Assembly: GCA_964658305.1 (NCBI GenBank)
Contig: OZ210884.1
Span: 310,001 to 374,000 of the forward strand
Direction of reading: 5' to 3'
DNA: 64,000 bases
Source: Leptogorgia sarmentosa
Lineage: Eukaryota
Positions within the stretch are counted from its first letter, which is position 1, and each line of letters opens with the position of its first letter. Under the pieces are notes generated by a model that was not told the DNA's origin, did no database searches, and saw only the letters and a program-made list of their open reading frames with translations. A program made the position numbers and the translations under genes. Shown here one piece after another: positions 11,031-40,019 of this stretch.

Positions 11031-12286
<1,256 letters not shown>

Positions 12287-12418: not shown

Positions 12419-12520
12419 ACAATGGAATAAATTAACAGAAGAGCAATCTAATCAAGTCTCAACAAGATTTCGTGTATAAAACGCAGTAAAAATTGTGAAT
12501 ATTTCCCTGATTTTACAAAG

Positions 12521-15500
12521 ATGATGGATAGTATAAAGGGCTATCTACCTCGAAATAGATTCAGTACCTTGTCTTACGTATGTGTGATACTTCATTTAAT
12601 CTTTGGAGCTACATTGATAGCTATTACAGCGAATTTAAAATAGCGACGATGCGGAAAAGTTCAGCTGTGCGGTCGACACAACATTTGCGACGCACAAGAC
12701 ATACGTGGAGAAAACGTGTTTTTCAATCTACAACGATGATTACAACTCTCCTGTCAGACTTTATGCTTTCGTCCTGTTGAGTTTCGGCTCTGTAGCTGTT
12801 GTGAGTCTCGTTTATTCGCTTGCAGTTGCAAACCGTATCGACGAAACAGAAAGATACTTGACCAAATGTGACGAGAACAAAACCGATGCAAAGAAAGAGA
12901 CATTTGAACCAGGTAGAAAGAGTTTCCATGTTTTCTATTGCTATTTTATCCACCTTGTTACTCGTTTCATGCTTGGTATAATATTTACCATCCTACAGTA
13001 TGCTGTATTTTATCCGAGTGGTTTTCATTCCCAATTCACCAGTGTTTACCCAGAATTAAAACAACCAGACCCCACCATAACTACAACTATGAATACCAGT
13101 GTCCTCTTGTCAAATGTAACATGTACAAACTTGGCCGCAAAGGATAAACAGTTTTGGGGAGCATTTGTTTCCGTATGTAATGTCATTGCTGCCTTAATTG
13201 CACTGGTAGAAGTGATTTATCTTGCATTGCATGGGTTTTGTTGTTTCAAACCTCGATCTGATCTTCCTTGGTCATGTGATTCACAATTTATTGCTGAGTA
13301 TTTTCTTGGAAAGCAATACATCCCATTTGAGAATGATGAGTTTACTGGCGTAGACAATTGTACCCCAAACAGCACTGAAATTTACAAACAGAATGTTTGG
13401 AAGGCTTCTATTACACCAGACATAAATTATGGGCTCGACACAGACACAAGTTTGGACGAGATATTTATTGATGTTGTTATTCAAACTGAACAAGCACCAT
13501 TGAAATTTCCAAAAGATATGACCAGGCATGAGATCAATGATGTTTATATGAAAGTTCCTAAACACTCAATAGGTCTTGAAGAGGTTAAAGATTTATTTCA
13601 TCCAAACAAGGATACAAAGGGTAATTCCCCACGAACTATTTTAGTCCTTGGAAGACCTGGAATTGGCAAGACTGTTTTGACCAGGAAAATTATGCGAGAT
13701 TGGGCAAGGGGGATTGACAAATTTTACCACGGCAAGATTGCGTTCTTCTTCAAATTTAGATGGTTTCATTTTGAGCAATTACAAAATTTGACACTTAAGA
13801 AATTTCTTCAATTAGCAACAGAACTGAGTGAAGATGCGTTTGAAAGTGTTTTTGAAGAAATTTGGGCAAACCCTCAAAATGCTATATTTGTCTTTGATGG
13901 CTTTGATGAATATCTTGCGAATCTCCAGAAATTTCAGGACTTTCTAGACCTGTCTAAAATGTGCCCGAATCACTCTACTTCTCCCATGTCGGCAACGTTT
14001 CTTTTCATTAAAATTTTGTCTGGCCAGATTTTACCTGGGGCAACAGTGTTGGTAACTAGCAGACCAAGTGCCATTGATGTTTTATCAAAATTTCATTTTG
14101 ATCGAAAAGTAGAGATAATTGGATTCACTGAAGAGAAAATTGAGAACTATGTTGAAAAATTTTGTGCTAATAATGAAAAAGATGAGCTAAAACCAAAGAT
14201 ATGGAATCATATCAAATCATCAGAACTAAAGAACATGTGTTATATTCCGGTGAATTGTTTTATAGTGTGTTTTACTTTGTTAAATGACCTAAGTGATGAA
14301 GGCAATGACAGTGCCTTGCCAACTACTTTAACTGACCTGTATCGGGAAGCTTTACATCATTTTTATAACCATAATAATCGAGACCTCCCCAAAGAACATT
14401 ATGAAAAGGTTATTAAGGAACTCCAACAGTTGGCTTTTGATGGTATGAAAAATGACCAATTGATTTTTGATGCTGAATTTGTTAATGAGCAGATGGAAAA
14501 ATCAGGATTGTTGCATCGTTTACCAGTCCCATTTTGTCAAGCTCAAGCTTGTTTCATTCATTTAACTGTACAAGAATTTCTTGCAGCCAAACATATAGTG
14601 GAAACAAAAAAACCAGAGGATATCGAAGAATTTATTACTTCTCATGTTGAACATGGCAAATGGCATCTGGTACTTCAGTTTCTGGCTGGGTTGTTGGGAA
14701 AGAGAATGAAAATGTGTAAAGAATACAAGAGTTGTGTTTTGGCTTTTAGAGAACATTTGCAAATTGAAATTGAAGGTGAGGATACTGTTTACACAGTGCA
14801 GGCTGATCGAATGTTGATGATGAAGTGTTTAAGAGAAACAGAGAGTGAAGATATTGCAGAAGAAGTCGGAATGACATCTGCTTTGAAAGACGTGACTAAG
14901 ATATATCATGGTGGAGAATATTTTTCCCCAAGTGATTGGGTAGCACTAGTGTTTGTTTGCAAGCACTTAAAACATCTAAAAATCTTATCTTTGAGTTTGA
15001 TAGCACATTTTGATTCTGTGGTAGAAATCGCAAAATTACTTTGTCACAGATGCATTGAAGCATTGAGATTCAGCGGGTGCCTCATTTCCCCCGTACAAGA
15101 GATCCTGGAACATCTTCTTACTGCAATAACATCAACACAATGTCGCATTAATCATGAACATTGTAAACTGGCTTACCTAAATCTTTCTCAGAACGGTATT
15201 ACTGATGCTGATTTATCCACGTTAACTGAGTTTCTTAAAAATGGTCATAAGATTTGTCTGAAGGAGTTACACCTGAGAGGCAATACGGGAATCACTTCTG
15301 ATGGAATTTCTATGTTTTGTGATGTTCTGGGCTATGAGGCTTGTAAGCAACTTGCATTGCTTAGTCTTCACTTTTGTCGGCTTCTAGGTGATGATGGTGT
15401 GCGATTTCTATGTAATGCATTGAAAGCGAAGCAGCATGGACTTAAGGTGTTGTCTCTTCATTCATGTTCTTTAACCACTGAAAGCACAAGTTGGCTCGGA

Positions 15501-16178
15501 CAGCTTCTCAGTGATGAACATTGTGAAATTACCAACTTGCAACTAAGTCTTAATGATCTACGTGATGAAGGTGTGCGTAAGTTGTGTGATGGTTTCAGAC
15601 AAGGGCAACGTAAACTTGATGTTTTAAATATTTCCTATTGTTCATTAACCCATAAATGCATGCCTTACCTAAGTGAGGTCTGTGGTGATGAAATGTGTAG
15701 CATTACTTACTTGTCACTTCGCGGGAATAAGAGTATAGTTGATAAAGGTGCAAGTATGTTGTTTGATGCTTTGAGAGTAAAACAGTCCAGCCTCATTGAG
15801 TTGAATTTGAGTAGGTGTGGTTTAACAAAGGAATGTATGACTTCCTTGTGTGGAGCTCTCGGTGATGAACACTGTCAACTGACCTACTTGGATCTTGAGA
15901 AGAATGATATAGATGATGAAGGTGTAGAGATGTTGTGTTGTGTTCTTGGGAAGGAACAGTGTAAGCTTACTGTGCTGGATCTTAAGTTTTGTTCGTTGAC
16001 AGATAAATGCATCTCTTCTTTGTCCGAAGCCCTCGGAAAGGATAGTTGCAGACTTACTGAATTAGAATTAGGCCTCATATACTCCTCCTCTAATAAATTC
16101 TCTTCTGAGGGAAAGAAATCGCTTAAAGACATGATGGAATCTGAACATTGTAGGGCAAGAGGTTTAAGAATAACATAA
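12521..16178 (+). CDS. Transmembrane NLR: 4-TM connexin-like N-terminal domain + NACHT + RI-like LRRs; apparent 1-nt frameshift at ~12638
   Basis: ORF 12705-16178 has Walker A GRPGIGKT (13650-13673), Walker B IFVFDGFDE, LVTSRP, winged-helix FIHLTVQEFLAA and many LxLxxN/CxL LRRs. ATG 12521 encodes TM1 in another frame, joined by removing one A from the AAAA at 12637-12640. Confidence 0.9.
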
Positions 16179-19141
16179 TTTGTCCTATCAGAGTATGAAA
16201 TGGTGAACTCTTCCTGTACTCAAAGTGTTGGATTGGAAACTTTATAAACGAGTTGACTGAGACAAATGCTACGATGGAACCATGTCGCACCTCACTACCA
16301 CAGTTTCACGGCTCGCGACGATCATCAGCTTTGCGCTTCGGTAGTTCTACGGTGAATTTGAGACAAGGATTTTCCCAGGACGGTGAGGTATTTATTCGCC
16401 TGTTGGTTCCTGCAGAATCTTGTACTTGTTCTACAGCAGGCATGTCGGACATTAATCCAAACTATGCTGAATTTCATGGAACATTCGACGAAACTTTCAC
16501 GACTCAATTGCTCGCATTCTCAGCTGAAGCGGATTGCTTTAAATTGACCGCATCAAAGTATTGGATTGGTAACTATATAAAACGAGTAGTGCACTGGGTC
16601 GAGTGTGATGACGCAACTACGGCGTAACTAGAGAAAGTGTTACACGATAAAAAGCTCATTGGACGGATGCTTACACCTTGAGTTATGTGGAACTTTCCAA
16701 GAGATTAACTTATTTTAAGGTATATTGAAACTGAATATTTATTTTTCCAAAATCAGAATTTCCAATGAATGCCAGCAGCCGGCAGATTCGTCGGGGCTAT
16801 TTGACGATCTAACGCCAACTATTTTCAAAAAAAGGAATCAATGATTGATTATTAGGCTGTTTTGAAAAGTAAAAAACCGTGAAGTTTCGATTCAATTTTA
16901 GTTTAGCCAATGTTTAAAGCTGAAAACTTCAAAGCAAATTTTCTAATCAAACAACTCGTTTAAAGCTTTCTTCTTTAGAAATCTTGTCTGCCTCCATTTC
17001 GGATTTTTCTTTTGTCGAGTTTTGGAATGAAAGTACGTGAAGAAAAACGCAAAGTAAAACAGCGGTTAATGCAGGGTTAACGTTAATCCAGCTTTGGACA
17101 ACCTGCCCATGGCTAGGGCTGTTGGAAATTCTATTGGAAATCCTGCAAAAGATAAATATTTGTTACATGCGAATAACAAAATTTTCTCTTGAAATTTTCC
17201 TGATTTTAGTGAAATTTTATTGTCCAGATTTGCTAATTCACATTTCCTAAGAAATTGTCTTTGGTTGTGGTTTCCCATCGCAATCAAACTCGAAAATAAA
17301 TAAGCAGAAACACAGTTGTGGCAATGGAAGTGTTGCTAAAGTATTGTATCAACTCATTCGCTCACACGAATCAATTCACTTGAGAGTTTTAGGGAATTAT
17401 TCGCAATTTTCGTGTATTTGATTACGTCTGGTCGCTTCCTGTTTTTTATGATTGGCCAGTTGCACCAAAACCAAATGTGATTGGATCATTCTAGAAGAAG
17501 TTTATCAACTATACGAAATGTTGTCGAATTATCAAATAACTAAGCAAATGATTCAATTGCTTTGTGTGTGCAAATGAATTGATAAAATATATTGGGAACA
17601 ATTCCATTGACGAATTTCAAAACTGTTGCGTTTCGATGATGTATGATGGAGTGTTTGATTTCACAACTGATGCTCAATTTGAACCGATTCATAACAAAAA
17701 CATCGTCGTGTGATTAAAGCTAGAACAGAGACGGCGAAATTATAGTAATATGTCGATTCTTGTACATTGTAAATATTTAGTTATTGTAGATTAGGTCAAT
17801 GAGTGAATAGCATGTTCCTGTGTAATACATAAAACGTCAGTCACTACGAACATTTGAGATACTGTAATATGGGCAATTATTACCGAAGCATATGTAAGTT
17901 TAGAATTGTAGTTTTCAAATCAAATGTTTTACAAAATTCAGATTGCTGGAAATCTTGTTACCTAAAATATTCAAGTTGTGTTTGTGCTTTGTTTTTAATT
18001 ATGGTGAATATTTACTGTTAGGAAAATCAGAGGGGTACACATTTGATTTAACATTATGTTGGGGAAGCTGGTTGTTATAGTCCCTCCCTTGAGGAATTGC
18101 TGGCGCCACCGCAAATTTTTTTTCCGTAGACAGTCGGACCCCTCCGAGATTGTCGTACTCCTCCTTAGCTCGTGCCCAGACCTGTGATAAACATACGCAC
18201 GCGGATACAATACCTGCAATTTCCCGCATGCTTATTTTTGCCTGGTATTAATATACAAAAATAGGTACACAAAGTGTACATGTATCTGCGCCTATGTCAG
18301 GTTGCGCCTATGTAGCTTGATGATCAAGTCTTATTTGTTTTCAGCTTTTCGATACACGCATCTTATCTGTCCCTAATACGCGATCTTGCATGTATAAAAT
18401 GGTTTACTGCTAGGGAATAGGCGAATAGCGCAAAAAAATACTAGGCAAGACGTGAGGTTGTGCGGAGACGTATTCAATACTTGATATAAGCTTTCATGAC
18501 TATCTCGCATTCCGGAATTCCCGCGATCATATATCAAATTGCATAAGGAATTGAAACTTGACGACATATGATATCGCGTTTTATGTTATTGCGTCTTTAA
18601 AATAGACACAGCGCTTTGCGATTGTTTGTGAAAAATGTGGCTCTCTAAAAACCAAATTTACCCTTTTCAATACCGTATTATAATAATATATTTATACACA
18701 ATATATTCCGTCCATTCGTGCGCATTTGCGTAGACGCTAAAGTGTATGTATGATCGGTATGCGCATTACGCGTAGGTTCAAAACAGAATACATGAAACAA
18801 TATATAATTTCGTTTGTTTTGTCTCGCGCTTAAAGGACAACGGCAACAAAAAATTTTATTGGCTATTTTACTATAATAGCATCAATACACCTTACGCGTT
18901 ATGTTTTTCTGACGTCAATAGAACACAATTAAGAGTTATTACACAATATTATATCTTAAATTCATCATCCCGTCCGCCATTTTGAATTAATGCGAAAAAA
19001 TTATGTTTTGGTCATGCAATCTCTATGACGTCAGGTGTGGGGTTTGGCAATTTTTGCAATAGACTGCTATAGAGGTTCGTAGGTTGTTAATAACTTTTTA
19101 AACAGCAAGAAAGCAAAACAAACGAAACATTTGATCAATTA

Positions 19142-19738
19142 ATGGATGAAATTCACGAAAATCAAGTGAGTGAAGTTCTGCCGTATCAGTTTGAACCCGA
19201 ACCAGGCCAAAACGCGAACTGTAGCGAATACTCTAGTGACTGTGAAAGCCAGTCTTCATCTGATGAAGACATTGGAATAAAAGCGTTTGAAACCGAAAAC
19301 GCTTGGCGCTTTGATTCACTAAAATGGTGCAAATGTGGTCATTGCTCGATACATAACAAAGTGATTGAAAATTTCTGTTGTAAAGAAAAATCATTAGAAT
19401 ACGACGAATATGATTCACTTTTGTCGCAAGCAGAAGAGGCAGGGAACCAGTGTATTACATGCCTACCGGAGTTTGCTGAAAATATGCTATCGCAAGGAGA
19501 TTTAAGGATTGATGTATGTAGATACTTAGAAGAAAATTGGCCGCTTGGCGATGAAGATATTGAAAGAACTCATAAACTTTACCGCTTGGTATCTTATCAG
19601 AGGTGCTCCCGTTGGATATTCCAAATATTGGGAAAGAAAAAGAGAAGACCGTTTTCGTCTTGTATATATGCGAAAATACGAGAACAATTTCCTTCAACAG
19701 ATGGGCTGTATACACATTTTAAGTACGCTAACAAGTAG
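19142..19738 (+). CDS. KolX-like / P2X7 C-terminal ballast-like Cys-rich protein (198 aa)
   Basis: Motifs PYQFEP, WCKCGHC, ENFCCKE, CIT, YRLVSYQR..RWI...LGKKKRRP..SC...IREQFP. Confidence 0.8.
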   Translation: MDEIHENQVSEVLPYQFEPEPGQNANCSEYSSDCESQSSSDEDIGIKAFETENAWRFDSLKWCKCGHCSIHNKVIENFCCKEKSLEYDEYDSLLSQAEEAGNQCITCLPEFAENMLSQGDLRIDVCRYLEENWPLGDEDIERTHKLYRLVSYQRCSRWIFQILGKKKRRPFSSCIYAKIREQFPSTDGLYTHFKYANK

Positions 19739-36284: not shown

Positions 36285-39282
36285 TCACACTATATTAAAG
36301 TGCCAAGCATCCTTATTAGAAAGCAGCTCGCTAAATTCTTCAGAAAGTTCGTTGTAGGACTGGTATGTTGAAGGAATTTCAAGTAACGGCCCACAAGTGT
36401 GTACCACTGGTCTACGTGTTGTGCCCTCGAGGACATTAAATGTTACTTCGATGCGTGGAAAGCAGATAACATCACTACCCGTCACAAATTGTAAAAATAG
36501 AGACAAGAAATTTCCCTGCAGTGACCGAATATACTTCTTTAAGTGATCAAGACACTGGCGTTCCTTATCTGATGTCGGTTCGGACTGAATTAATTTCAAA
36601 ACCTTCTTTGTAGTTGGCCTCTTAGCTTCATATAGGTTTTCCACATCTTTAACGGATTGGAAATTTGGGAGAATTCTCAATGACTTAAGAACAGGAGACC
36701 AGCAACTTAACACATATCTCGGTTTTTGAATGATCTCTTGATGAGCAATTTCGGACATGATGTGGCGAATATTGTCTTTTGAAGGATTTCGAAAGCACTT
36801 ATAATTACTCAATAAATCCATCAAATCCTCATCATCTGGATCAAAATCAAAGTCGTCTTTGAGACATTTATCAAAAGTGCTTCTCTCGTCATCGGATAGA
36901 TATTGGCGGAAACATGATAGCAAAAACTCCCCCGAAATACTATTATCACCAAACAAACAAACAATAAGGAAACCCATAGATAGCGACAATGGAAAATATC
37001 CGTCTCTTACATACCCATACAATAATATACGAGCAATGGCTTGCCATTCATCTTTCTGGTAGTCATGTCTTATAGCAGGAATCTTTTCTTGTGCTCCAAT
37101 AGCCACGGAGTTGAAGAACTGGTTCCAGAAAGTTGCAAGTGCATCACGAAAAACACCATCTCCCTTTCCTATTTCTACCTTTCCATTGTATCCAATAAGT
37201 GTGATTTCTTTGCATTACTACTTCTTCTTTAAATGTTACTATCATGTCATCCTTTAAGATGGTTCGATGCCAGACCACAGAATAAATAGGGGACTCTTTT
37301 ATGTTTGACACAACGTCAATAAACGAAAAATCATTATCATAGGTATCTGCAAAAACAATTTATTAGTCAGTTGAATCACGGTTAATAACTAACAGTGGTA
37401 GAATAAAATATGGACAGGTACCCAAGCAAAATTAAAATACAAGGACTGAATACAACCTAGTACATGAATAGTTATAGATTTCATTAGCCTAGTTCTATTA
37501 ATTAAACAATACTCGATGGGAGAAGCAACTTTTAGTTATTAATTTGACTATGAACACTTTAATGAATATGGACTATATATATACAGCTTGTTGATGTCAA
37601 TAATTTCTGGGTCTATGTCACAGTAGTTTAGTAGCTTGATAAATATAATGAATAGTTAGTTGTTGTTTTATGCACTACTCAACCTAATTTACTTGGGGAT
37701 TAAATTGTCAGATTTACCTAAAAAGATGTCCATGTCATTTACATCCTCCATGTTTGGTTCATTGATTGTTGTATTGCTCATGACAGGTTCACATACATTT
37801 GTAGATCCCTCAGACACTTCTTTATTTATCTCAACCACCTGCACTTCCTCCATGTTTAGTTCATCAGATCCACTATAACCCACATTACATGGAGTAGCAC
37901 ATGACATAATCTGAATAAATAAATTCATGTTAATACCAACACTTGATCAAGTTTGGTGAATTTTAACAGGATGCAACAATGCCCAAATTGTTCATAGTTG
38001 TCAACAATATTGTTCAGCATTGTTACACCTAGCCTGATTGTGGGTTCAGCTGATTCAGACTCATCAATGCTAAACAATATTGTTGACAACTATGAACAAT
38101 TTGGGCAGCACAACATTGTTGCATCCTGTTTTCACCAATCTTGAACCTGGGATAATTTTTAGCTTTGTACATGAGAGACCATCAATCATCATGCATAATC
38201 ATTTATTATTCAGATCAAAATTGGGGGGGGGACCACTTTGGTTCATTGATTGTGTATTCTCATGACAGGCTCACATACATTTGTAGATCCCTCAGACACT
38301 TCTTTATTTATCTCAACCACCTGCACTTCCTCCATGTTTAGTTCATCAGATCCACTATAACCCACATTACATGGAGTAGCACATGACATAATCTGAATAA
38401 ATAATTCATGTTAATACCAACACTTGAACCTGGGATAATTTTTAGCTTTGTATATAAGAGATCATCAATCATCATGCATAATCATTTATTATTTAGATCA
38501 AAATCGGGGGGGGGGGACCACTGGGGAATACCCACTCCTTTTTATTGCAGTATTGAAATATATAATTTACTCATTTTCAATCATTTGAAATTTCCTTGTA
38601 CATACCTTATCAAATTCAGAGTCACTATCACTATGCGGCCTACACAAAAATTCCAAATAATCTTCCGTTTTGCAAACGTGAAACGTCAGCCGTGTGTATG
38701 CCTTTCCTATATCTTCCTTGTACTTTTTTAAAGTGAATGGTTCCTCACTTCCAGGTAGACAAATGACTTTCGTTTTATCTGGATATAGTAGGGTGAATCC
38801 GCGCAATGCACACGTTAATTCACTGTTAAACCTTAGAATTTTATCGGACGCTTTTTTTAGCAGCTCGTCGGCGTTAATGCTCGGATTGACAGTAAGAGGC
38901 AACGAACTTCCTCTTACGAACTTTAAATCATTATCGCGGAATCTCCTTAAACCAACATTTATCGTGACTTCGCTTGGCGTTTTCTTATTTCCATTCGTTT
39001 AACCTTTGTTTTTTTGGCTTTGGGTTTGAATCTCGATTTTCGTTCTTCTTCCTTACGTTTTTGGTATTCGCGGAACGACACAGGTGTCGATAACCGACTT
39101 TTTGAAACTGGCGTGAACGAAGTGCTTGATGTCGATGTACCCTGTGATGTATTGTTCACTGTGCTGCAGCCACTAGTGCTAACACTTACAGCAGGTTTTT
39201 CCACTTTTTCGATACATTGGCCACAAACGTGACAAAATTTTGCCCCAACTAATGATGAACACCCGCACTGACTACAGAACAT
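36285..39282 (-). pseudogene. Multi-exon zinc-ribbon + HECT E3 ubiquitin ligase gene (G2E3-like HECT) with frameshifts
   Basis: MFCSQCG...AKFCHVCG; inferred exons ~39282-38606, ~37910-37718, 37346-36285; GDGVFRDALATFW, GYFPLSL, FLQFVTGS, RRPVVHTCGPLLEIPSTY (catalytic Cys motif); frameshifts near 39000 and 37212. Confidence 0.8.
37947..38143. mobile_element. Palindromic MITE in HECT intron
   Basis: GCCCAAATTGTTCATAGTTGTCAACAATATTGTT mirrored at 38072-38106. Confidence 0.7.
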
Positions 39283-40019
39283 TTATACTTCAATGTCAAA
39301 GTCTACACTTTTTACAAATATACAACCAGTACGAAACGTGCAATATAAAATATTGTCGCAATACGCGCGCATTGCTTCATGGGAATTACATTATTTTAGG
39401 TGTGCATCTACGTTTTATTTTGTTTGCATCGACTTTTTAAAGTATGCATCAACATTTTTAAGTTTGCATTCACAATTCTATTATTAAGTTTGCATCGCTT
39501 TTTTAAAGTTTGCATCGACTTTTTAAAGTTTGCATCGACTTTTTAAAGTTTGCATCGATTTTTTAAAGTTTGCATCGACTTTTTTAAAAGATTGCATTGA
39601 GTTTTTTAAAGTTTGCATGTCCCTTGTGGGCCATCGTAGTATACGAGTATGATTCTACTAATCCTCGATAGATAGTGAGTAGCAAAACATGTAAATTTTC
39701 GTTCAAGAAAATGTCTTCTGAGACGCGTTTTTAAATTACGTTTTGCAATATTTTCATGTTTGATCTCTGATTCTACTAAAACAATTAGATTACTCGCTCT
39801 CGATTTCTACGAGATGATAATATAATAGAAATCTCGAGCTCGTAATCTAATTGTTAATTATATTCACCGGACGGCAAAAATCTATTGTCCGGCTCGCTTC
39901 AGAATTATGTGTTTCTCCACCGGAAACTTTCAACTATGAGTTCGATCGACCATAATGCAGGTGGGTAAATCAAGGACTATTTGAAACTTCTAAATACTTT
40001 TAAGTCTTTGATGCGACTA

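What the first reader, a model, noticed from the sequence alone, without database searches (positions are those of the whole stretch)
12521..16178. NLR immune receptor with an N-terminal connexin-like four-transmembrane domain
Seen: after repairing one frameshift, the ~235 aa before the NACHT read TM1 (LSYVCVILHLIFGATLIAITA), a loop DDAEKFSC...VEKTCFSIYND, TM2 (LYAFVLLSFGSVAVVSLVY), TM3 (YFIHLVTRFMLGIIFTILQYAVFYPSGF), a loop ending VTCTNLAAKDK, and TM4 (CNVIAALIALVEVIYL). Established: connexins have ExxxFxC...CYD in EL1, YxxxxxxR/KxxxExxFxxxQxxxYGF in TM3, CxxxRPTEK in EL2 and NxxELxYL in TM4. They are generally regarded as chordate-restricted. TM-bearing NLRs are known in anthozoans. Inference: NACHT oligomerisation could assemble or gate a large-pore channel, analogous to plant resistosomes and bacterial TM-effector STAND ATPases, and the domain may bear on the origin of connexins.
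Basis: partly seen in the sequence, partly recalled or inferred. Interest (0 to 1): 0.9.

Follow-up and report, generated by a model that had tools for sequence, protein, structure and literature searches.

The report
Connexin-like NLR gene, broken copy
This immune-sensor (NLR) gene, likely from an octocoral, begins with a four-helix membrane domain related to the connexins of vertebrate gap junctions; a 2026 preprint already describes this fusion, and this copy is broken by a one-base frameshift, so it is likely a young pseudogene or an assembly error.

Summary
Window 12521-16178 (+) is one uninterrupted coding stretch of 1218 codons. It reads: N-terminal helix, four hydrophobic helices, NACHT ATPase, helical domain, leucine-rich repeats. 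One surplus base at 12637-12641 breaks it just after the first membrane helix.

The connexin reading also holds.
- Pfam's Connexin model is the only membrane family that matches. The match is weak for the window (15.7 bits). It appears in 23 of 35 intact relatives, 3 of them above Pfam's cut-off.
- A profile of 19 relatives finds only connexins among solved structures at E below 1.
- An AlphaFold2 model of the closest intact relative matches solved connexins first (Foldseek E 5e-6; Z 13-15).

The finding is not new. A bioRxiv preprint of June 2026 (10.64898/2026.06.13.731801) describes these anthozoan "connexin-like NLRs". It reports 4-100 copies per genome, single exons and two cysteines per loop, and shows that they form ATP- and glutamate-permeable hemichannels.

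The window's copy has also lost one loop cysteine that all 62 relatives keep. Whether NACHT assembly gates the pore remains untested.

The parts
12521..12637 (+). Start codon (12521) and frame A: short charged N-terminal helix, then TM1 (hydrophobic core 12569-12625)
   Evidence: tblastn of P0001 residues 1-38 gives 74% identity. The invariant D3, K6, F14, H25 and G29 of alignment A1 are kept.
12635..12643 (+). Break: TTAAAATAG. One surplus base shifts the frame by +1, and frame A runs into TAG at 12641-43.
   Evidence: The joined reading aligns with 19 intact relatives with no gap at the join.
12626..12770 (+). Extracellular loop 1 (predicted), with the two family cysteines at 12666-68 and 12717-19
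   Evidence: Cys is present in 57 of 62 relatives; the other 5 gene models lack this stretch.
12771..12827 (+). TM2 hydrophobic core
   Evidence: KD 2.21. The AF2 helix of the relative spans residues 77-119.
12939..13010 (+). TM3 hydrophobic core. It holds the H-L-V-x-R...F-T-I-L-Q-Y stretch that HMMER pairs with connexin TM3.
13011..13172 (+). Extracellular loop 2 (predicted beta hairpin). Ser codon AGT at 13041-43 stands where every relative has Cys. The second Cys, at 13122-24, is kept.
   Evidence: 62 of 62 relatives have Cys at both positions; strands 171-177 and 197-204 in the relative's model.
13173..13229 (+). TM4 hydrophobic core, with the E-V-I-Y-L stretch paired with connexin TM4
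13230..13631 (+). Cytosolic linker between TM4 and NACHT, conserved in the family (W-S-C-D...). No Pfam family in the local library.
13632..14171 (+). NACHT NTPase domain. Walker A G-R-P-G-I-G-K-T at 13650-13673; Walker B-like F-V-F-D-G-F-D-E at 13887-13910.
   Evidence: (PF05729, E 1.3e-26, 93.9 bits)
14559..14861 (+). NLR helical domain (NLRC4_HD2-like), below Pfam's cut-off
   Evidence: E 8e-06; 26.8 bits against a cut-off of 33.1
15165..16150 (+). Leucine-rich repeats of the ribonuclease-inhibitor type (bounds approximate)
   Evidence: LRR_6 E 4e-20; also LRR_1 and LRR_4. One search shows internal repeat alignments over 15504-16151.
16176..16178 (+). Stop codon. The C-terminal end resembles the ends of relatives P0004 and P0006.

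Best explanation
The locus is a single-exon gene for an NLR (NACHT ATPase plus leucine-rich repeats) whose first ~240 residues are a connexin-like four-helix membrane domain, and in this assembly one surplus base breaks it just after the first membrane helix; intact relatives would likely assemble through this domain into a plasma-membrane hemichannel with the NACHT-LRR part in the cytosol.

Shown here:
- The domain order.
- The four hydrophobic helices.
- The sequence and fold link to connexins.
- Membership of a large family: 62 close relatives, and 271 cluster representatives at E up to 0.001. The closest named members are octocoral proteins.
- Two lesions in this copy: the frameshift, and Ser in place of an invariant loop Cys.

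Shown by others (Butler et al. 2026 preprint): stony-coral and sea-anemone members of this kind, expressed in HeLa cells, reach the plasma membrane and release ATP and glutamate on depolarisation. Some also respond to raised CO2. They do not form gap junctions.

Inferred:
- The octocoral clade behaves the same way.
- The subunits form a ring of six or seven.
- Ligand sensing by the LRRs and NACHT oligomerisation act on the pore.

For this particular copy I put about 55% on a young pseudogene or null allele and about 45% on an assembly error. Two lesions sit in the same domain, yet the remaining 1179 codons are still open. The confidence given is for the identity of the gene and its family, not for this sub-claim.
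For: Architecture:
- NACHT 1.3e-26, LRR_6 4e-20, HD2 8e-06, Connexin 0.013.
- Walker A and Walker B present.

Family:
- 62 hits among 757 candidates, 35-78% identity over the N-terminal 245 residues. All are NLR-length. Named ones come from Paramuricea clavata and Dendronephthya gigantea. 15 of 62 already carry a precomputed PF00029 hit.
- 271, 199 and 83 representatives at E up to 1e-3, 1e-10 and 1e-30.

Link to connexins by sequence:
- PF00029 at E up to 0.1 in 23 of 35 relatives. It is above the 31.3-bit cut-off in 3: P0046 at 36.7 bits and E 4.8e-9 (residues 16-236 against profile 18-224 of 225), P0017 at 32.7 bits and P0049 at 32.6 bits.
- PF00029 at E up to 1e-3 in 25 of 71 more distant representatives, and no innexin, pannexin, LRRC8 or CALHM family is listed.
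- the profile of 19 relatives finds 29 distinct PDB sequences at E up to 10. Nineteen are connexins, with Cx32 best at E 9.5e-4. The other 10 are picornavirus capsid proteins at E above 1.3.

Link to connexins by fold:
- AF2 model of P0001 residues 1-250, pLDDT 70.5, with four long helices and a loop hairpin.
- Foldseek gives 105 matches at E up to 1e-3. Every listed row from rank 1 to rank 34 is a connexin (some ranks are collapsed duplicate chains that the tool does not show), with Cx32 7zxm_A at E 5.2e-6 and TM 0.65.
- Cx50 Z 15.1 (rmsd 3.8, 164 aligned), Cx32 Z 14.2, Cx26 Z 14.0, Cx40.1 Z 13.8.

Single exon and break.

Lost cysteine. The window keeps 38 of 39 columns that are at least 90% conserved.

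Function of relatives: preprint sections 5, 6 and 10 and passages from sections 7 and 8.
Against: - The window's own Connexin score (15.7 bits) is below Pfam's cut-off. 12 of 35 relatives give no PF00029 hit at E up to 0.1.
- The best PDB profile hit is only E 9.5e-4 at the whole-sequence level, and the single-stretch E is 0.14.
- By fold alone the separation from other large-pore channels is small: LRRC8A Z 13.6, pannexin-2 Z 12.8, innexin-6 Z 11.4, against connexins at 13-15. The tool warns that helical bundles reach Z about 13 easily.
- The family has 2+2 loop cysteines, not the 3+3 of most connexins.
- No octocoral member has been tested. The preprint's main text names no octocoral, and I could not see its figures or supplements.
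So pseudogene against assembly error is a judgement, and expression of this locus is unknown.
- The folded protein is a relative (P0001, about 76% identical in this domain), not the window's own broken product.
Confidence: 0.88

Rival explanations
1. The gene is intact in the animal. The surplus base at 12637-12641 would be an assembly or base-calling error, and Ser at 13041-43 a tolerated variant or a second error.
For: - The 1179 codons after the break carry no stop.
- 38 of 39 conserved columns of the membrane domain are kept.
- Walker A and B are intact.
- The break lies in a short A-run.
- A perfectly uniform 1256-bp (AAC)n array lies 235 bp upstream. That points to a repeat-rich stretch where assemblies can err. 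This last point is inference.
Against: - A four-base run is not a typical error hot spot.
- A second lesion in the same domain removes a cysteine kept by 62 of 62 relatives. That fits relaxed constraint better than two independent errors.
Confidence: 0.4
2. The four-helix domain only anchors the NLR to a membrane, as a localisation device, and forms no conducting pore in the animal.
For: No experiment on an octocoral member exists. The homo-oligomer question was not settled here.
Against: - Stony-coral and sea-anemone members, including NACHT-bearing ones, released ATP and glutamate in HeLa cells (preprint sections 6 and 8).
- The invariant residues of the family lie in the loops and in TM3/TM4, at positions that HMMER pairs with connexin positions.
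Confidence: 0.1
3. The likeness to connexins reflects only the common fold of large-pore four-TM channels (pannexin, innexin, LRRC8) or convergence, not descent shared with connexins.
For: - Z-scores for LRRC8A (13.6) and pannexins (12.3-12.8) are close to those of connexins.
- The 2+2 cysteines are the pattern usually linked with innexins, as the preprint itself notes (section 5).
Against: - The sequence profiles single out connexins. PF00029 is the only channel family hit in 23 of 35 and 25 of 71 members.
- The PDB profile search returns connexins only at E below 1.
- The preprint reports HHpred probability 99.95% to Cx31.3, and one pannexin match against 159 connexin matches from 210 queries (section 5).
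Confidence: 0.05
4. The break is read through by a programmed +1 ribosomal frameshift at AAA-UAG. The lysine tRNA would slip one base at the stop codon, giving ...L-K-S-D-D..., which has exactly the family's length.
For: The geometry fits: a 0-frame stop directly follows an A-rich codon, the product has the family's length, and Lys at this position occurs in relatives P0038 and P0044.
Against: - None of the relatives whose models reach this point needs a shift.
- No stimulatory element was sought or seen.
- Such sites are very rare in animals (recalled knowledge).
Confidence: 0.02

Closest known systems
Anthozoan connexin-like NLRs (CxL-NLRs), Butler et al., bioRxiv 10.64898/2026.06.13.731801 (June 2026)
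   Same: - N-terminal connexin-like domain, then NACHT, then LRRs.
- The coding sequence is a single exon.
- Two cysteines per extracellular loop in the family.
- Many copies per genome.
- Pfam, PDB-profile and Foldseek links to chordate connexins.
   Different: - The closest named relatives of the window's gene are octocoral proteins. The preprint's main text names no octocoral, and its tested proteins come from stony corals and a sea anemone.
- This copy is frameshifted and lacks one of the four loop cysteines.
- Nothing here was tested at the bench.
Chordate connexins (Cx32/GJB1, Cx26/GJB2, Cx31.3/GJC3, Cx50, Cx43; Pfam PF00029)
   Same: - Four-TM fold with a short N-terminal helix and a loop hairpin.
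- HMMER pairs the last EL1 Cys and Y-D, TM3, the EL2 Cys followed by a (D/E)-K pair, and the TM4 E-V-x-Y-L stretch.
- Best structural matches.
   Different: - Only 14-18% identity to solved connexins in the structural alignments.
- 2+2 rather than 3+3 loop cysteines.
- A longer second loop that carries N-x-S/T sites.
- A roughly 980-residue NACHT-LRR tail in place of a short regulatory tail.
- Relatives formed hemichannels, not gap junctions (preprint section 7 passages).
LRRC8 (volume-regulated anion channel) subunits
   Same: A large-pore four-TM domain followed in the same chain by cytosolic leucine-rich repeats. Structural match Z 13.6 to LRRC8A.
   Different: LRRC8 has no NACHT switch between pore and repeats. 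No sequence-profile match was found here. LRRC8 is pannexin-related, which is recalled knowledge.
Plant ZAR1-type resistosomes and bacterial STAND ATPases with TM effectors
   Same: As a working analogy only: a STAND/NLR switch coupled to a membrane-permeabilising part.
   Different: In those systems the pore forms only after activation, from soluble helices or separate effector domains (recalled knowledge). Here a constitutive four-TM channel domain of a different fold is fused N-terminally. No homology in the membrane part was tested or seen.

Membership tests
Connexin superfamily (Pfam PF00029) | Match to the Connexin profile at or above Pfam's gathering score (31.3 bits): the window's own product | tested here: not met
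   15.7 bits, E 0.013, residues 23-130 of frame B against profile 59-172 of 225. TM1 lies in the other frame and was not part of that query.
Connexin superfamily (Pfam PF00029) | Match to the Connexin profile: the family the window's gene belongs to | tested here: met
   23 of 35 relatives at E up to 0.1, and 3 of 35 above 31.3 bits (P0046 36.7, P0017 32.7, P0049 32.6), collinear over nearly the whole profile; 25 of 71 distant representatives at E up to 1e-3, best 2.8e-9.
Connexin superfamily (Pfam PF00029) | Four transmembrane helices in connexin order with two extracellular loops | tested here: met
   four hydropathy cores; helices 16-46, 77-119, 130-163 and 206-242 plus a loop hairpin in the relative's model. 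Which side of the membrane the loops face was not tested.
Connexin superfamily (Pfam PF00029) | Fold match to solved connexin subunits | tested here: met
   every listed row from rank 1 to rank 34 is a connexin, E from 5.2e-6. Z 13.0-15.1 for six connexin representatives, covering about 85-99% of the solved chains. LRRC8A and pannexins follow within 1-2 Z units.
Connexin superfamily (Pfam PF00029) | Three conserved cysteines in each extracellular loop (canonical pattern; recalled, and stated indirectly in the preprint) | tested here: not met
   the family has 2+2 and the window 2+1. The preprint notes 2+2 also in the vertebrate epsilon clade (section 5).
Connexin superfamily (Pfam PF00029) | Hexameric channel that passes small molecules | not testable with these tools
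   Bench data exist only for other anthozoan members (preprint sections 6-8).
Anthozoan CxL-NLR (Butler et al. 2026) | Domain order: connexin-like domain, then NACHT, then LRR, in one chain | tested here: met
Anthozoan CxL-NLR (Butler et al. 2026) | Coding sequence on a single exon | tested here: met
   one collinear tblastn match over 12521-16214, interrupted only by the one-base shift. No gap at the join.
Anthozoan CxL-NLR (Butler et al. 2026) | Two cysteines in each extracellular loop | tested here: not met
   The window has Ser (AGT, 13041-43) at the first EL2 position, where 62 of 62 relatives have Cys. The other three cysteines are kept. The family itself meets the feature.
NLR (NACHT-LRR) | NACHT NTPase with Walker A and Walker B | tested here: met
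   PF05729 at 93.9 bits against a cut-off of 26.7; both motifs present.
NLR (NACHT-LRR) | C-terminal leucine-rich repeats | tested here: met
   LRR_6 at 70.6 bits against a cut-off of 23.4, in 4 stretches
Innexin / pannexin, LRRC8, CALHM | Significant match to the family's Pfam profile | tested here: not met
   None of these is listed for the window (E up to 1), for 35 relatives (E up to 0.1) or among the 17 families hit by 71 representatives (E up to 1e-3). The fold resemblance to LRRC8A, pannexins and INX-6 is real.

The most novel reading that the evidence does not exclude
In intact members of this family, ligand-driven assembly of the cytosolic NACHT ring directly opens or builds the fused connexin-like pore. 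Receptor, switch and large-pore channel would then sit in one polypeptide. That would be an animal counterpart of plant resistosome channels, releasing ATP as a danger signal or killing the cell.
Probability: 0.2. Interest if true: 0.8.

Novelty: already known. Interest (0 to 1): 0.3.

Why it matters
The fusion matters for two fields. It places connexin-type channels before the split of cnidarians and bilaterians. It also shows an NLR tied to the membrane by a pore-forming domain.

Both points are already made, with bench data, in the 2026 preprint. This window adds three small things:
- The closest named relatives are octocoral proteins, and the clade is large: 62 close relatives, with 271 cluster representatives for the wider domain family.
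- Members of the family decay, or are mis-assembled, by small lesions. That fits the birth-and-death turnover expected of expanded immune-receptor families.
- Ten of the 62 public gene models for this clade lack TM1, so they may be mis-annotated.

The open question worth testing is whether the NACHT switch controls the pore.

Tried and rejected
1. Reading across the break by reference with a four-letter step. AAAT=X and TTAA=L each recur in frame elsewhere (codons 115 and 26) and derail the frame. I used intact relatives for profiles and folding instead, and an X-joined reading inside scripts only.
2. The window's own genome. None is held, so paralogues in the same genome could not be counted. 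tblastn with P0001 and P0046 finds no second copy within the window.
The frameshift, the Ser codon and expression therefore stay unchecked.
4. Homo-oligomer prediction. Four copies of residues 10-245 of P0001 gave no verdict (scores 0.28 and 0.25 against a mark of 0.32; controls not run; alignment not used). This is neither support nor evidence against.
5. An intron across the break. Rejected, because only 4 nt separate conserved residues of the two frames and the join aligns without a gap.
6. Other membrane families. Only faint hits appeared: PTPLA and TMEM72 at E 0.03-0.07 in a few relatives and SLATT_fungal at E 0.041 on the 40-residue frame A piece. All are far below their cut-offs.
7. The bacterial promoter/terminator scan is meaningless for a eukaryotic locus and was ignored.
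8. Earlier scan notes. Nothing on this genome and nothing on connexin-NLRs.
9. Literature beyond the preprint. Six searches combined connexin with NACHT, NLR, NOD-like receptor, cnidaria, coral, Acropora, anthozoan and octocoral. No other relevant paper turned up. The preprint's references 32 and 33, said to have annotated connexin domains in cnidarian NLRs earlier, could not be identified because its reference list is not held.
10. PF27087, listed in the precomputed column for most relatives, is not in the local Pfam copy. I do not know what it covers.
Full report
**What is in the sequence**

Between 12521 and 16178 on the + strand lie two adjoining open frames.
- Frame A starts at ATG 12521 and stops at TAG 12641-43 after 40 codons.
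- Frame B is open from 12639 to the stop at 16176-78 (1179 codons).
- Frame B is +1 from frame A, and a TAA at 12636-38 closes it upstream. The change of frame must therefore happen within TTAAAATAG (12635-12643).

I read across the break with X inside a script. The result is a 1218-residue protein that aligns with intact relatives with no gap at the join. Only four nucleotides separate the last conserved residue of frame A from the first of frame B. The break is therefore one surplus base, not an intron.

The C-terminal end resembles the ends of relatives P0004 and P0006. The gene is one coding exon.

**Domains**

Pfam on frame B gives:
- NACHT: E 1.3e-26, 93.9 bits, residues 332-511.
- LRR_6: E 4e-20.
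- NLRC4_HD2: E 8e-06, below its cut-off.
- Connexin PF00029: E 0.013, 15.7 bits against a cut-off of 31.3.

Walker A and Walker B are present at 13650-13673 and 13887-13910.

Hydropathy over the joined reading gives four cores above 1.8, at residues 17-35, 84-102, 140-163 and 218-236.

**Relatives**

A search with the first 245 residues of frame B, among proteins of NLR length, found 62 proteins at E up to 0.01 among 757 candidates.
- E values run from 5.5e-120 to 5.3e-25, and identity from 35 to 78%.
- The relatives that a source names by organism are from the octocorals Paramuricea clavata and Dendronephthya gigantea. The window's animal is therefore probably an octocoral, which is an inference.
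- Fifteen of the 62 already carry a precomputed PF00029 hit.
- Fifty-two of the 62 gene models contain TM1 in the same frame as the rest. The other ten start later.
- In P0001 the join reads I-T-M-D-S-N-S-D-D-M-E-K-F-S-C, against the window's I-T-A-N-L-[break]-S-D-D-A-E-K-F-S-C, of equal length.

A profile of 19 N-terminal domains (A1) was searched against 1.84 billion cluster representatives. It finds 271 proteins at E up to 1e-3, 199 at up to 1e-10 and 83 at up to 1e-30.

Only one copy lies in the window. No whole genome is held for it.

**Is the membrane domain connexin-like?**

Three independent tests agree.

1. Pfam.
   - Among 35 full-length relatives, PF00029 is hit at E up to 0.1 in 23.
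   - It is above Pfam's own cut-off in 3: P0046 at 36.7 bits and E 4.8e-9 (residues 16-236 against profile 18-224 of 225), P0017 at 32.7 and P0049 at 32.6. P0062 falls just short at 31.2. Twelve give no hit.
   - Among 71 more distant representatives, 25 hit PF00029 at E up to 1e-3 and 29 hit NACHT. No innexin, pannexin, LRRC8 or CALHM model appears among the 17 families listed.

2. Solved structures by sequence.
   - The A1 profile finds 29 distinct PDB sequences at E up to 10. Nineteen are connexins and ten are picornavirus capsid proteins at E above 1.3.
   - The five best are all Cx32, with E from 9.5e-4 to 7.1e-3.
   - The printed alignment pairs the last EL1 cysteine and Y-D, TM3 up to Y-P-G, the EL2 cysteine followed by a (D/E)-K pair, and the TM4 A-E-V-x-Y-L-I stretch.

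3. Fold.
   - AlphaFold2 of P0001 residues 1-250 with A1 gives pLDDT 70.5 and pTM 0.59. The model has four long helices, a loop helix and a two-stranded hairpin in loop 2.
   - Foldseek against the PDB gives 105 matches at E up to 1e-3. Every listed row from rank 1 to rank 34 is a connexin, with Cx32 7zxm_A at E 5.2e-6 and target TM 0.65. Pannexin-2 is rank 35.
   - The Foldseek-independent search puts Cx50 first (Z 15.1, rmsd 3.8 over 164 residues), then Cx32 at 14.2, Cx26 at 14.0 and Cx40.1 at 13.8. LRRC8A follows at 13.6, Cx31.3 at 13.2, pannexins at 11.5-12.8 and innexin-6 at 11.4.
   - The fold alone therefore places the domain in the large-pore four-TM group, with connexins on top by a small margin. 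The sequence profiles are what single out connexins.

**Differences from canonical connexins**
- The family has two invariant cysteines in each loop, not three.
- The second loop is long and carries N-x-S/T sites.
- Identity to solved connexins is 14-18% in the structural alignments.

**This copy**

Of the 39 columns of A1 that are at least 90% conserved, the window keeps 38. The one change is Ser (AGT, 13041-43) at the first loop-2 cysteine, where 62 of 62 relatives have Cys.

Together with the frameshift, that makes two lesions in the same domain, while 1179 downstream codons stay open. I read this as a very young pseudogene or null allele (about 55%) against an assembly error (about 45%).

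A programmed +1 shift at AAA-UAG would give a product of the right length. No relative needs one, so I give it about 2%.

**What is known**

[quoted passage not shown] I read the abstract, sections 5, 6, 10 and 12, and passages from sections 3, 7, 8 and 9. I could not see the figures, tables or supplements, and the reference list is not held.

The preprint reports the following.
- Connexin-like (CxL) domains sit at the N-termini of anthozoan NLRs.
- Coral genomes hold 4-100 copies, and 92% of the CxL proteins carry a NACHT domain.
- The genes are typically single-exon, with two cysteines per loop.
- HHpred gives 99.95% to Cx31.3, and Foldseek top hits are chordate connexins.
- In HeLa cells the proteins localise to the plasma membrane and release ATP and glutamate on depolarisation. 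Some also respond to CO2. The cnidarian proteins show no gap-junction coupling.
- NACHT-bearing constructs still form channels.
- AlphaFold3 favours hexamers or heptamers.
- Connexin domains had been annotated in cnidarian NLRs before (its references 32 and 33).

Its main text names no octocoral. Its survey used all RefSeq-annotated cnidarian genomes (section 12), so octocorals may be covered in the parts I could not see.

Six literature searches found no other relevant paper.

**How it most likely works**

Shown here: the architecture and the homology.

Shown by others for sister members: a membrane hemichannel that passes ATP and glutamate.

Inferred for intact octocoral members:
- Six or seven subunits would form the pore.
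- The short charged N-terminal helix (invariant D3 and K6) would line it.
- Loops 1 and 2 would face outside, each held by disulfides.
- The NACHT-LRR tail would hang in the cytosol, where it could sense ligands.

Whether NACHT oligomerisation opens or builds the pore is untested. It is the most interesting open reading (about 20%).

A four-copy prediction of the membrane domain gave no verdict and counts neither way.

**Verdict**

The class is already described, and this copy is a broken member of it. Interest is low to moderate.

Noticed in passing
window 11031-12286: A perfectly uniform (AAC)n array of 418.7 units (100% matches, 1256 bp). It ends 235 bp upstream of the gene's start codon. 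It may be a real giant microsatellite or an assembly product (also seen as poly-N/T/Q frames).
   Followed up: partly
window 49056-59974: A satellite of about 10.9 kb with a 19-bp unit (587 copies, 79% matches). GC is about 0.29 and GC skew is strongly positive.
   Followed up: no
window 19094-19738 (+): A 214-codon open frame matches the P2X7 receptor intracellular domain family (P2RX7_C, E 1.5e-13). It lies 3 kb downstream of the NLR. This may be a repeat-borne domain rather than a receptor gene.
   Followed up: no
window 33749-33933 and 39422-39618, with ORFs 34824-35621 (+) and 36285-37214 (-): Two arrays of a 20-bp unit are reverse complements of each other. They flank a roughly 5.5-kb stretch that holds an integrase-core ORF (rva_4, E 3.4e-23) and a weak HECT-like ORF (E 1.3e-06). 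This looks like a mobile element with inverted subterminal repeat arrays.
   Followed up: no
proteins P0008, P0009, P0020, P0025, P0026, P0029, P0030, P0040, P0045, P0051: Ten of the 62 public gene models of this clade lack TM1. Five of them start at the M-E-K-F-S-C methionine just after it. They may be truncated models, or copies broken upstream like the window's. Without TM1 the predicted topology would be inverted.
   Followed up: partly
window 12452-12520: The stretch just upstream of the start codon translates in frame to a peptide (..K-N-C-E-Y-F-P-D-F-T-K-M-M-D..) that resembles the extended N-termini of models P0007 and P0012. The 5' leader is therefore conserved among paralogues. A TATAAAA string lies at about 12474-12480.
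   Followed up: no
precomputed Pfam column: Most relatives carry PF27087.1, a family absent from the local Pfam copy. I do not know what part of the protein it covers.
   Followed up: no
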